DNA from: a phage
DNA: 64,000 bases
Sequence record: OM867527.1
Reading direction: 5' to 3' (one strand)
Shown here: positions 17,391 to 18,388 of the stretch, one piece after another
Layout of the letters: each line of letters opens with the position of its first letter
Numbering within the stretch: the stretch's first letter is position 1
Program-made: the position numbers and the translations under genes
Notes under the pieces: generated by a model
The model's input: the letters and a program-made list of their open reading frames with translations, nothing else
The model's database searches: none
What the model was told of the DNA's origin: nothing

Positions 17391-17619
17391 TAGTAGCTTT
17401 AACGCAGCTAACGAGGCTAGGCCAGTTAACTATTACCACCGGTGCTTGTACCAGCAAACAGGATTGATAGTCCGATAATAGTTAACTGTAATTGAGCATT
17501 ATAGTCTGCTCATACTCACACCGTTAGGTATGTTTACAATAACTAGAGTGCCGGACTGTCTCACCGGCATTGTCTTTAGAGTGCAATGCAATCAGGACTA
17601 TGTTCTCTATTAATGAGTA

Positions 17620-17702
17620 CCCACTACTGGATTTGAACCAGTGACCACAGACACCTTGTTCTCTCGAAGCTTTCCTGCGCTCTACCACTGAGCTAAGTGG
17701 GC
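17620..17702 (-). tRNA. tRNA-like element: canonical acceptor, D-arm and T-arm, anticodon arm not resolvable (possible unusual or pseudo-tRNA)
   Basis: Minus-strand sequence GCCCACT-TA-GCTCAGTGGTAGAGC...ACTGG-TTCAAAT-CCAGT-AGTGGGT gives a 7-bp acceptor pairing, a D-arm and a T-arm. The 36 nt between D- and T-arm contain no 5-bp/7-nt anticodon hairpin that I could find. Confidence 0.4.
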
Positions 17703-18132
17703 ATAAATAGGCGAGTCATGCCAGACTTTAACTGGCTCCTTCTTCGCAATCCTTACATACCCCTACATAATTATTGCGTTAAGCTTTTTTGTTTAAGTTT
17801 AAATGAAGGCGTTCTTGCTGACTCATAATTAGGTTTCCTACTTGCATGGGCTTCCACCATATCATGACGAGTTTGAGACTGCGGAGCGTCTACCTCTATG
17901 CTGTTACCAGCCACCGGTAAACCGGCGTTCTGTGGTCCATCGTCTTCAATCATGTTGTCTTAACCATATAGGGATTCAGGCAACTATGACGGCAAGTAGG
18001 AAATTGGTATTAATGTCTTGGTTTCATGAAGATTTTAGGTTAAGTGTACCAAGACATCAAATAAGGTGGGCGTTTGACGAATGACTAGTTCGTTACTACC
18101 CGTTTGCCATAAGTACCTGGCGACTTCAAATA

Positions 18133-18220
18133 ACGGGGGATGGAATCGAACCACCAGTATTAAGTCTTATTCGTGCACCAAGCACGCTAGTGGTTTTACC
18201 CACCGGAGGGAATCGAACCC
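18133..18220 (-). other. Two tandem tRNA T-arm-like repeats (GGTTCGATTCC) about 67 nt apart
   Basis: Plus strand carries GGAATCGAACC at 18142..18152 and 18209..18219 (reverse complement is the T-loop consensus GGTTCGATTCC) with stem-like flanks. Full cloverleaves could not be folded by eye. Confidence 0.3.
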
Positions 18221-18388
18221 CATCTACTTCACCAGACCCGTCTTAATTCTTCCAATTCAGGGTAGCACTGTCGAGGTGTGTTCTTTGAATGCCAGGAAAC
18301 ATTTAAAGATACAGTGCTACTTTGAATTAATTGCCAGGGATTTCACCTGGCTCCATCTGTTTTTATAGTCACTCAGATATCGTCTGGA

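What the first reader, a model, noticed from the sequence alone, without database searches (positions are those of the whole stretch)
17600..18300. tRNA-like elements with canonical D/T arms but no resolvable anticodon arm
At 17620..17702 (minus strand) there is a near-canonical acceptor stem, D-arm (GCTCAGTGGTAGAGC) and T-arm (ACTGG-TTCAAAT-CCAGT), but the 36 nt between them contain no 5-bp/7-nt hairpin. Two further T-arm-like copies (GGTTCGATTCC) lie at 18142..18152 and 18209..18219. These could be functional tRNAs with unusual structure that I cannot fold by eye, tRNA pseudogenes, or tRNA-derived regulatory elements.
Basis: seen in the sequence. Interest (0 to 1): 0.5.

Follow-up and report, generated by a model that had tools for sequence, protein, structure and literature searches.

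The report
Non-decoding tRNA-shaped RNAs in a phage
The phage carries two conserved RNA genes that are built like tRNAs but have no anticodon, so they cannot read codons; one shows a small hairpin that other, unrelated phages show on a different tRNA-shaped frame, and what they do is unknown.

Summary
The window is Escherichia phage HK2, an N4-like Gamaleyavirus.

Element A (17618-17702, minus strand) scores 53.9 bits on the Rfam tRNA model. Its acceptor stem, D arm and T arm are canonical. In place of the anticodon arm it has a 30-nt arm capped by a GNRA tetraloop, and no 13-nt deletion restores an anticodon loop. It is conserved in N4-like, T5-like and Kuttervirus phages, with compensatory changes in 5 of 7 acceptor pairs. 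Almost the same arm sits on a different, unannotated cloverleaf RNA in HK620-like prophages and other phages.

The two extra "T arms" are not two tRNAs. Both lie in one 112-nt five-way-junction RNA, element B (18131-18242, minus strand). Fourteen of its 26 pairs show compensatory changes, and it is also found inside the tRNA clusters of T4-like phages.

Neither element is a decoding tRNA, an intron-bearing tRNA or a decaying pseudogene. Best reading: they are stable tRNA-mimic non-coding RNAs, comparable to T4 RNAC and RNAD. They are probably matured by the tRNA-processing enzymes, and element A probably acts through its conserved arm. The target and function are unknown.

Neither element matches any Rfam family other than tRNA, and no searchable paper contains the arm or the second-frame core sequences.

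The parts
17618..17702 (-). Element A: an 85-nt tRNA-shaped RNA gene with no anticodon loop
   Evidence: Rfam RF00005 53.9 bits. 24 of 24 pairs are kept in 10 distinct homologues and 5 of 7 acceptor pairs are compensatory.
17696..17702 (-). Element A, acceptor stem 5' strand (GCCCACT)
   Evidence: Pairs with 17619-17625. It covaries with the TGCTTCA/TGAAGCA and GTCCACT/AGTGGAC versions.
17679..17693 (-). Element A, D arm (GCTC-AGTGGTA-GAGC)
   Evidence: Read directly from the sequence. The stem is invariant in all homologues.
17648..17677 (-). Element A, 30-nt arm that replaces the anticodon arm: CAGG-AAA-G-C-UUC-GAGA-GAA-C-AAGGUG-UCUG
   Evidence: Unique in the window. Nearly invariant across two unrelated frames. 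G30-U53 alternates with G-C. No deletion restores an anticodon loop.
17662..17665 (-). GNRA tetraloop (GAGA) that caps the arm
   Evidence: Homologues carry GAGA, GGAA, GAAA or GGGA, all of them GNRA, on an invariant C-G closing pair.
17626..17642 (-). Element A, T arm (ACTGG-TTCAAAT-CCAGT)
17618..17625 (-). Element A, acceptor stem 3' strand (AGTGGGT) plus discriminator A. CCA is not encoded in HK2.
   Evidence: Some homologues (L016, L087, L090) do encode CCA after the discriminator.
18131..18242 (-). Element B: a 112-nt five-way-junction tRNA-like RNA, with an acceptor-like stem and four hairpins
   Evidence: RNAalifold gives 26 pairs, 14 with compensatory changes, over 7 homologues. Covariance model R1 scores 116.8 bits here and finds a single copy in the window.
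18207..18221 (-). Element B hairpin 1: an internal T-arm-like hairpin (GGGG-TTCGATT-CCCT).
   Evidence: The stem covaries as GGGG/CCCU, GCGG/CCGU and GUGG/CCAC.
18189..18204 (-). Element B hairpin 2: a variable hairpin
   Evidence: Four of its 6 pairs show compensatory changes.
18172..18186 (-). Element B hairpin 3 (CGUGC-UUGGU-GCACG)
   Evidence: Covaries as CGUGC/GCACG, CAUGC/GCAUG and CGUGA/UCACG.
18139..18155 (-). Element B hairpin 4: the true T arm next to the acceptor 3' strand (GGTGG-TTCGATT-CCATC).
17370..17391 (-). Intrinsic-terminator-like hairpin followed by a T run, downstream of element A. It is the likely end of the transcript that carries the RNA cluster (inferred).
   Evidence: It also appears inside weak Rfam matches.
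17314..19216 (-). A 1.9-kb stretch holding only short ORFs (two small hypothetical CDSs are annotated in the HK2 record) between the N4 gp48-like ORF (16921-17313) and the next ORF (19217-19657). In relatives this stretch is a variable cluster of tRNA and tRNA-like genes.
   Evidence: ORF lists. Annotations of HK2, Bp4, UE-M6 and PD205. Four-phage alignment.

Best explanation
Elements A and B are genes for stable, non-decoding, tRNA-shaped RNAs in the phage's cluster of tRNA and small-RNA genes.

Element A keeps everything that the tRNA maturation machinery recognises: a 7-bp acceptor stem, a discriminator base, and D and T arms that form the elbow. In some relatives it also has an encoded CCA end. 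The likely course is therefore that it is cut out of a longer transcript by RNase P and the 3' processing enzymes, receives CCA, and accumulates as an ~85-nt RNA. This step is inferred.

Its anticodon arm is replaced by a longer helix with an internal loop and a GNRA cap, so it cannot read a codon. This follows directly from the sequence. The arm is the most conserved part, and it also appears on a second, unrelated tRNA-shaped frame in other phages. The tRNA body therefore most likely serves as a processing and stabilising scaffold, and the arm as the working part: a binding site or decoy for a host (enterobacterial) or widely shared factor. This is inferred, and the target is unknown.

Element B is a second RNA of the same general kind. 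It has an acceptor-like stem, two T-loop hairpins and two further hairpins.
For: Identity and shape:
- The Rfam tRNA model matches with an enlarged anticodon region.
- ARAGORN gives no consistent anticodon.
- No excision restores a canonical loop.

Selection for the fold:
- Homologues occur in N4-like phages (HK2, pSb-1, Bas96, L233), a T5-like phage (EP_H11), and many ~150-160-kb Salmonella and E. coli phages. Those whose taxonomy was fetched are Kuttervirus.
- In 10 distinct sequences 100% of cells are paired, against 32-45% when partners are slid. Five of 7 acceptor pairs changed on both sides.
- Between the two acceptor types the acceptor stem differs at 71% of positions, while the arm, D arm and T arm differ at 6-9%.

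The arm as a module:
- The same arm, with 4 of 30 differences, sits in a different cloverleaf in HK620, SopranoGao, swi2, L013 and others. The differences include GAGA to GGAA, and both are GNRA.
- All four loop variants seen are GNRA.

tRNA-like ends:
- CCA follows the discriminator in L016, L087 and L090.
- In HK620 the second frame has a 7-bp terminal stem followed by G-CCA.

Element B:
- Fourteen of 26 pairs are compensatory.
- It lies inside tRNA clusters of the T4-like phages VR5 and PEi26 and next to tRNA genes in the N4-like phages KP8 and VLCpiP4a.

Precedent:
- T4 makes stable RNAs of unknown role (RNAC, RNAD) from its tRNA region (PMC3014915, PMC9697503).
Against: - There are no expression, processing or binding data for any member. 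Maturation by tRNA enzymes and stability are inferred from shape alone.
- The arm hardly varies, so its inner pairing cannot be tested by covariation. In one search, helices 3 and 4 never vary, except for one G-U/G-C switch.
- Low divergence could reflect recent horizontal spread rather than constraint.
- The set of tRNA-frame homologues is small: 10 distinct sequences with two acceptor types. One recombination event could therefore account for much of the 'covariation' in the acceptor stem.
- Element A is absent from most Gamaleyaviruses. In Bp4 a tRNA-Ile(AAT) sits at the same locus, so element A is dispensable for the phage type.
- In the second frame the arm is highly variable and the frame is conserved. 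That could mean the frame, not the arm, is the working part there.
Confidence: 0.55

Rival explanations
1. Decaying tRNA pseudogenes: former tRNA genes whose anticodon region was destroyed by an insertion and which persist only by hitch-hiking in a variable gene cluster.
For: Several Kuttervirus records annotate the homologue as a pseudo or 'OTHER' tRNA. The cluster is mosaic, with many gains and losses. The Gamaleyavirus cluster also holds other odd tRNAs, such as anticodons AAT and ACA and an undetermined one. Element A is missing from most relatives.
Against: Every one of the 24 pairs is intact in all 10 distinct homologues, and the acceptor stem shows double changes that keep pairing. The 'insertion' is the best-conserved segment and recurs on an unrelated frame. 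All loop variants remain GNRA. Element B has 14 compensatory pairs across N4-like and T4-like phages.
Confidence: 0.1
2. A real decoding tRNA. Either the extra 13 nt is removed after transcription (a mini-intron or a cut-and-rejoin step), or the enlarged loop reads an unusual codon, for example in frameshifting or recoding.
For: The total length of 85 nt and the Rfam score are in the range of real tRNAs. Bas96 annotates the homologue as tRNA-Val. ARAGORN in intron mode proposes Pro(agg) with a 15-nt intron.
Against: No contiguous 13-nt deletion yields a 4-5-bp stem with U33 and a purine at 37, in HK2, a Kuttervirus copy or L090. ARAGORN's three relaxed calls disagree with each other. The only conserved hairpin tip is a 4-nt GNRA loop, whose variable positions would change any putative 'anticodon'. 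No short introns of this kind are known in bacterial or phage tRNAs (own knowledge).
Confidence: 0.05
3. An aminoacylatable tRNA mimic used outside decoding. It would be charged by a synthetase that ignores the anticodon and would either donate its amino acid to a non-ribosomal reaction or titrate the synthetase or EF-Tu.
For: The acceptor stem, A73 discriminator, elbow and (in some copies) CCA end are intact. The acceptor stem exists in two very different versions on an otherwise constant body, the pattern expected if acceptor identity matters.
Against: No identity elements were tested or are testable here. G3-U70 (alanine identity) is absent. The second frame that carries the same arm lacks canonical D and T loops. 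The explanation does not account for why the arm sequence is conserved.
Confidence: 0.1
4. Processing punctuation only. The tRNA-shaped folds exist to let RNase P and RNase Z cut a long transcript into pieces, as hammerheads are thought to do in prophages, and the released RNA has no function of its own.
For: The elements lie in a long transcript-like unit that ends at a terminator. Hammerhead-like ribozymes lie next to, or inside, members of the second frame in related loci. Hammerheads in prophages have been proposed to cut long transcripts into gene-length units (PMC3088659). Many second-frame copies sit directly upstream of a gene start.
Against: This does not explain the near-invariant 30-nt arm shared by two frames. 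In HK2 only two short hypothetical CDSs are annotated within the cluster, so there is little mRNA to punctuate.
Confidence: 0.15

Closest known systems
Phage T4 RNAC (species 1) and RNAD (species 2) stable RNAs
   Same: They are small stable RNAs encoded in a phage tRNA gene cluster, next to tRNA-Arg. RNAC ends with ACUUAAUA + T arm + acceptor-like 3' strand, as element B does. Their function has been unknown for decades (PMC3014915, PMC9697503).
   Different: The covariance model built from element B does not hit T4 rnaC or rnaD at E<=1. Homology is therefore not shown, and the resemblance is limited to the 3' third. Element A has no counterpart in the T4 region that was fetched.
Canonical tRNA (Rfam RF00005)
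   Same: Element A has the acceptor stem, D arm, T arm and variable-loop spacing, and it scores above the gathering threshold.
   Different: It has no 5-bp/7-nt anticodon arm and no U33 or R37, and a GNRA-capped 30-nt arm stands in its place. Element B has five helices and two T-loop hairpins.
Unannotated 'second frame' cloverleaf RNA of HK620-type prophages and many other phages (core GAAUGCGCAGGCUGAUGCGC ... GCCGGAGAUCAGCACCGGCC)
   Same: A subset carries the same GNRA-capped arm at the position equivalent to the anticodon arm, with 26 of 30 nt identical to HK2. The layout is tRNA-like: a 7-bp terminal stem, a 4-bp and a 5-bp hairpin, and sometimes N-CCA.
   Different: Its D-like and T-like loops are not tRNA-like. 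They are mutually complementary (GCUGAU / AUCAGC), which suggests a kissing-loop elbow; this is inferred and untested. The arm is highly variable in the family as a whole (26-103 nt between the two conserved hairpins). The core is absent from the HK2 window. It matches no Rfam family.
Bacterial Y-RNA-like YrlA (tRNA-mimicking RNA bound by Rsr/Ro60)
   Same: It is a tRNA-like module joined to a second helical module, and it is found in bacteria and phages (PMC4201824, abstract seen).
   Different: In YrlA the RNA ends lie in the helix opposite the acceptor-like stem (own knowledge). Here the ends are at the acceptor stem. Nothing in the region matched a Y-RNA or any other non-tRNA family convincingly, even at E<=10.
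Engineered 'tRNA scaffold' for expressing recombinant RNAs in E. coli
   Same: The design principle is the same: a hairpin of interest replaces the anticodon arm, so that the chimera is processed and stabilised like a tRNA (PMC3753655, abstract seen; the design details are from own knowledge).
   Different: That scaffold is man-made. Whether the phage RNAs use the same logic is an inference.

Membership tests
Canonical decoding tRNA | 7-bp acceptor stem, D arm, and T arm with a GTTCRANYC loop | tested here: met
   (element A).
Canonical decoding tRNA | 5-bp anticodon stem with a 7-nt loop carrying U33 and a purine at 37 | tested here: not met
   Sequence reading. ARAGORN by default finds 0 genes. 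Rfam places 24 nt where 11 are expected.
Intron-containing tRNA | Removing one contiguous insert restores a canonical anticodon arm | tested here: not met
   All 13-nt deletions were tried in three homologues and none gave a canonical solution. ARAGORN's intron calls are inconsistent with each other.
tRNA pseudogene (neutral decay) | Broken stems and no conservation beyond close relatives | tested here: not met
   100% of cells are paired, 5 acceptor pairs are compensatory, and homologues occur in three or more phage groups.
T4 RNAC/RNAD-type stable RNAs | Encoded within a phage tRNA gene cluster | tested here: met
T4 RNAC/RNAD-type stable RNAs | Detectable sequence and structure homology to T4 rnaC or rnaD | tested here: not met
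   Model R1 (element B) gives no hit on T4 rnaC or rnaD at E<=1. Only a local 3' resemblance appears in the alignment. Element A was not tested with a model.
T4 RNAC/RNAD-type stable RNAs | Accumulates as a discrete stable RNA in infected cells | not testable with these tools
   This needs a Northern blot or small-RNA sequencing.
Second-frame cloverleaf RNA (HK620 type) | Conserved core hairpins GAAUGCGC-AGGCUGAU-GCGC and GCCGG-AGAUCAGCA-CCGGC | tested here: not met
   No match in the window with up to 3 mismatches. Element A shares only the arm.
tmRNA or YrlA / other Rfam tRNA-clan families | Match to the family's covariance model | tested here: not met
   Only RF00005 was reported, at gathering score and at E<=10. 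ARAGORN found no tmRNA.

The most novel reading that the evidence does not exclude
The 30-nt GNRA-capped arm is a mobile RNA module that phages mount on at least two unrelated tRNA-shaped frames: a true tRNA body in N4-like, T5-like and Kuttervirus phages, and a kissing-loop cloverleaf in HK620-type prophages and several siphoviruses. That would make it a natural counterpart of the laboratory 'tRNA scaffold'. It would yield an abundant RNA that binds or decoys one conserved enterobacterial factor, for instance a tRNA-directed defence nuclease or an RNA-binding regulator. Together with element B and the very widespread second frame, this would define new classes of phage non-coding RNA and give a handle on the old question of what T4-type 'stable RNAs' are for.
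Probability: 0.3. Interest if true: 0.8.

Novelty: new variant of a known kind. Interest (0 to 1): 0.55.

Why it matters
Phage tRNA clusters have long been known to hold 'extra' stable RNAs (T4 RNAC and RNAD) whose roles remain unknown. Annotation pipelines label such genes inconsistently. The homologues of element A are variously left unannotated, covered by a hypothetical protein, called tRNA-Val, or called tRNA-OTHER/pseudo.

This work shows that the HK2 elements are conserved, structured and unable to decode. It also shows that one of them shares a near-identical hairpin with a second, very widespread and unannotated tRNA-shaped RNA. Together these results turn an annotation oddity into testable candidates for phage-host RNA biology, such as decoys, sponges or processing signals. 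They also supply concrete alignments and structures from which family models could be built.

Tried and rejected
- Intron or splicing reading. A brute-force test of every 13-nt deletion gave no canonical anticodon arm.
- Class II tRNA reading, with the extra nucleotides as a long variable arm. Hand parsing gave 1 of 5 stem pairs. Alignment to the neighbouring Kuttervirus tRNA-Ser showed no relationship.
- Host origin. There was no match to the 101-nt element in 5,426 E. coli genomes.
- Antisense guide idea. The arm has no second or complementary site in the window at up to 3 mismatches. The variable arms of the second frame are no more complementary to their neighbourhoods than the sense controls are.
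- Homology of element B to T4 rnaC/rnaD. Not supported by the covariance model.
- Known-family search. Rfam at gathering score and at E<=10 gave only tRNA for element A, nothing for element B, and nothing for the second frame. The exceptions were a sub-threshold hammerhead next to the second frame and terminator-driven noise.
- Literature. Full-text searches for the arm and core sequences found no paper. Keyword searches found nothing that describes these RNAs. The prophage Pas sRNAs lie in a similar prophage position (near the Q antiterminator and holin genes) but are terminator-ended, Hfq-bound sRNAs, not cloverleaves.
- Motif comparisons made by eye and dropped as unconvincing: sarcin-ricin loop, SRP domain IV, k-turn, CsrA site, boxB and 16S 3' end. 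The GNRA loop varies, and the flanking motifs do not match.
- K-12 DLP12 prophage. It holds no copy of the second frame.
- Neighbour-gene survey of second-frame loci. The downstream ORFs are heterogeneous (holins and assorted small ORFs), and my ORF picks in GC-rich genomes were unreliable, so the survey was not pursued.
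Full report
**What the window is.** The 2-kb region is 100% identical to Escherichia phage HK2 (PP514361.1; Schitoviridae, Enquatrovirinae, Gamaleyavirus), an N4-like phage. The finding lies in a 1.9-kb stretch (about 17314-19216) that holds only short ORFs, two of them annotated as small hypothetical proteins in the HK2 record. On the minus strand this stretch runs between an ORF at 19217-19657 and an N4 gp48-like ORF at 16921-17313, and a terminator-like hairpin at 17370-17391 closes it. In relatives the same stretch is a very variable cluster of tRNA and tRNA-like genes. Bp4 has tRNA-Ile(AAT), tRNA-Cys(ACA) and tRNA-Ala(CGC). UE-M6 has tRNA-Ile, an undetermined tRNA and tRNA-Cys. 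PD205 has one 'pseudo' tRNA. The HK2 record annotates none.

**Checking the observation.**
- On the minus strand, 17702->17618 reads GCCCACU-UA-GCUC-AGUGGUA-GAGC-G-[30 nt]-UGGUC-ACUGG-UUCAAAU-CCAGU-AGUGGGU-A.
- Rfam's tRNA model matches it end to end at 53.9 bits (gathering score 29). It has to place 24 nt where the model has 11.
- ARAGORN with default settings finds no tRNA in the whole window.
- ARAGORN in relaxed modes gives three incompatible answers: Leu(cag) with a 1291-nt intron, Leu(aag), and Pro(agg) with a 15-nt intron.
- The T-loop consensus GGTTCRANTCC occurs three times in 64 kb, all within this 600-nt stretch and on the same strand. Shuffles predict 0.08.

**Element A is not a decoder.** The 30-nt segment CAGG-AAA-G-C-UUC-GAGA-GAA-C-AAGGUG-UCUG folds as follows: a 4-bp outer stem, an asymmetric purine-rich internal loop, and a short inner helix closed by C-G and capped by a four-base loop. 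I removed every possible contiguous 13 nt, in HK2 and in two divergent homologues. None of these deletions produced a 7-nt loop with U33 and a purine at position 37 on a stem of at least 4 bp. A mini-intron is therefore not a workable reading. A class II (long variable arm) reading fails by hand, and the element is unrelated to the neighbouring tRNA-Ser of Kutterviruses.

**Element A is conserved and under selection for its fold.**
- BLAST finds near-full-length copies in the N4-like phages pSb-1 and Bas96 and in the T5-like phage EP_H11.
- A 70-nt core matches at 93% in many ~150-160-kb Salmonella and E. coli phages. Those whose taxonomy I fetched are Kuttervirus.
- Metagenome and IMG/VR scans added four more variants.
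- Ten distinct sequences align without trouble. Across them all 24 modelled pairs are standard in every sequence, against 32-45% when the 3' partners are slid. Five of the seven acceptor pairs changed on both sides (GCCCACU/AGUGGGU, GUCCACU/AGUGGAC, UGCUUCA/UGAAGCA). The outermost variable pair of the arm switches between G-U and G-C.
- Between the two acceptor types the acceptor stem differs at 71% of positions. The D arm, the long arm and the T arm differ at only 6-9%.
- Some copies encode CCA after the discriminator.
- E. coli genomes hold no copy of the element itself.
- Annotators have treated the homologues inconsistently: no feature, a 'hypothetical protein', tRNA-Val, or tRNA-OTHER/pseudo.

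Two caveats apply. The sample is small, with only two main acceptor types, so one recombination event could explain much of the acceptor 'covariation'. The inner arm never varies, so its pairing cannot be tested.

**The arm recurs on a second frame.** An IMG/VR scan for the arm's core turned up a prophage contig (L013). There the same 33 nt (GCGCAGGAAAGCUUCGAGAGAACAAGGUGCCUG) is not inside a tRNA. Its surroundings form another cloverleaf: GUGGUG-AAU-GCGC-AGGCUGAU-GCGC-[arm]-UAUACAA-GCCGG-AGAUCAGCA-CCGGC-CACCAC. This version occurs in several places:
- coliphage HK620, where it lies between pR'/qut and the annotated late terminator, upstream of holin S;
- Klebsiella phage SopranoGao;
- E. coli phage swi2, where it lies next to tRNA-Met;
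- other phages, and 107 of 5,426 complete E. coli genomes, always unannotated.

Its arm differs from HK2's at 4 of 30 positions, two of which turn GAGA into GGAA. Over both frames the loop is GAGA, GGAA, GAAA or GGGA, which is always GNRA.

Scanning for the second frame's 20-nt core gave many hits. I parsed 119 of the 139. In 101 of those the terminal stem pairs at 6 or more of 7 positions, using 35 different 5' strands. The segment between the two conserved hairpins ranges from 26 to 103 nt. The two conserved hairpin loops are complementary to each other (GCUGAU / AUCAGC). This suggests a kissing-loop stand-in for the tRNA elbow, but my search pattern fixed one loop, so this remains an inference. 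In HK620 the terminal stem is 7 bp and is followed by G-CCA. This frame is absent from the HK2 window. It gave no Rfam match, and no paper in the library contains its sequence or the arm's.

**The two 'extra T arms' belong to one RNA, element B.** BLAST of 18110-18270 finds the segment in most Gamaleyaviruses, including G7C, and in the Klebsiella N4-like phages KP8 and VLCpiP4a. At about 80% identity it also appears in T4-like phages (VR5, VR25, PEi20/26, CkP1). In VR5 it sits between tRNA-Met and tRNA-Arg. Seven homologues give a consensus of an acceptor-like stem enclosing four hairpins:
- a T-arm-like hairpin (18207-18221);
- a variable hairpin (18189-18204);
- a CGUGC-UUGGU-GCACG hairpin (18172-18186);
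- a true T arm next to the 3' acceptor strand (18139-18155).

Fourteen of the 26 pairs keep pairing through changes on both sides. A covariance model built from these sequences scores 116.8 bits at 18131-18242 and finds no other copy in the window.

The position and the 3' third (ACUUAAUA + T arm + acceptor strand) recall T4 RNAC. However, the model does not hit T4 rnaC or rnaD. I therefore call element B analogous to RNAC, not homologous. T4 RNAC and RNAD are stable RNAs from the T4 tRNA region whose roles are still unknown (PMC3014915, PMC9697503).

**How it most likely works.**

Shown:
- Both elements are conserved structured RNAs with tRNA-type ends and elbows.
- Neither has an anticodon loop.
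- Element A's arm is a conserved GNRA-capped module shared with another frame.

Inferred:
- The RNAs are released and stabilised by the tRNA maturation pathway (RNase P, 3' trimming, CCA addition).
- In element A the tRNA body acts as a scaffold and the arm is the active surface. It would bind or decoy a host factor common to enterobacteria, or another widely shared factor.
- The patchy distribution fits an accessory, conflict-type function. The element is present in HK2, pSb-1 and Bas96, but a tRNA-Ile with the same acceptor stem and T arm replaces it at the identical locus in Bp4.

I could not identify a target. The arm has no complementary site in the phage. Second-frame arms are not antisense to their neighbours. 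Comparisons by eye with known protein-binding RNA motifs were unconvincing.

**Rivals.**
- Neutral pseudogene: disfavoured by the intact, covarying stems and by the conserved arm.
- Cryptic decoding tRNA: disfavoured and by the GNRA cap.
- A chargeable tRNA mimic used outside translation: not excluded, since the two sharply different acceptor stems on a constant body would fit.
- Pure transcript punctuation, by analogy with prophage hammerheads (PMC3088659). Hammerhead-like cores do sit beside or inside second-frame elements. Punctuation does not explain the conserved arm.

**Novelty.** tRNA-like stable RNAs in phage tRNA clusters are a known kind. These particular families, the shared arm module and the widespread second frame are not in Rfam 15, and I could not find them in the searchable literature. 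I rate the finding a new variant of a known kind. It is of moderate interest because function remains entirely open.

Noticed in passing
L049 1501-1611 (HK620); L013 ~4000-4120 minus strand; L050, L051, L052, L053; many IMG/VR and GTDB loci (L104-L319): A very widespread, unannotated cloverleaf RNA with the conserved core GAAUGCGC-AGGCUGAU-GCGC ... GCCGG-AGAUCAGCA-CCGGC. Its terminal stem covaries and its arm is highly variable. The exact 20-mer is found in at least 120 viral contigs and at least 120 bacterial species across several proteobacterial classes. There is no Rfam match.
   Followed up: partly
L305 (Halomonas olivaria AP019416.1), minus strand around position 6843 of the locus: The 20-nt core of that cloverleaf lies inside a CRISPR spacer, flanked by repeats GTTCCCCGCAGGCGCGGGGATGAACCG. 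A host CRISPR array therefore targets this conserved phage element.
   Followed up: no
L013 4307-4368 (-); L108 (inside the variable arm of a cloverleaf); L004 (PD205): Hammerhead-like ribozyme cores (CUGAUGA...GAAAC) lie next to, or nested in, second-frame cloverleaf elements. Rfam Hammerhead_3 scores 30.5 bits (E 2.6e-4), below its gathering score.
   Followed up: partly
window 18399-18424/18488-18513, 18254-18271/18311-18328, 18783-18800/18846-18863: Three further long inverted repeats (18-26-nt arms, 83-89% complementary) lie in the same stretch between ORFs. Parts of this stretch are strongly conserved among Gamaleyaviruses, so it may hold more structured RNAs.
   Followed up: no
window 18370-18387 (-) and 17754-17768 (-): Two short motifs, CCAGACGATATCTGAGTG and ATGTAGGGGTATGTA, recur just downstream of the second-frame cloverleaf in the unrelated phages SopranoGao and swi2 respectively. 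This suggests further shared RNA or promoter modules.
   Followed up: no
L002 1318-1392 (Bp4) versus window 17618-17702: At the identical locus Bp4 carries tRNA-Ile(AAT). Its 5' acceptor strand, T arm, 3' acceptor strand and flanks match element A exactly, and only the D-to-anticodon portion differs. This is a mosaic swap inside a tRNA gene. Several tRNAs of this cluster have A34 anticodons (AAT, ACA), which is unusual for bacteria.
   Followed up: partly
window 6009-16811 (+): The HK2 record annotates this 3600-aa ORF as 'DNA polymerase'. Its size, and the N4 gp45-, gp46-, gp48- and gp49-like genes annotated in the equivalent region of phage Bp4, fit the N4 gp50-type virion RNA polymerase. 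The annotation is probably wrong.
   Followed up: no
window 17360-17443 (-) and 16808-16878 (-): There are weak, sub-threshold Rfam matches to STnc100 (24-27 bits against a gathering score of 47), driven mainly by terminator hairpins. A 2026 preprint groups STnc100 with the prophage PasD sRNAs (10.64898/2026.05.13.724894).
   Followed up: no
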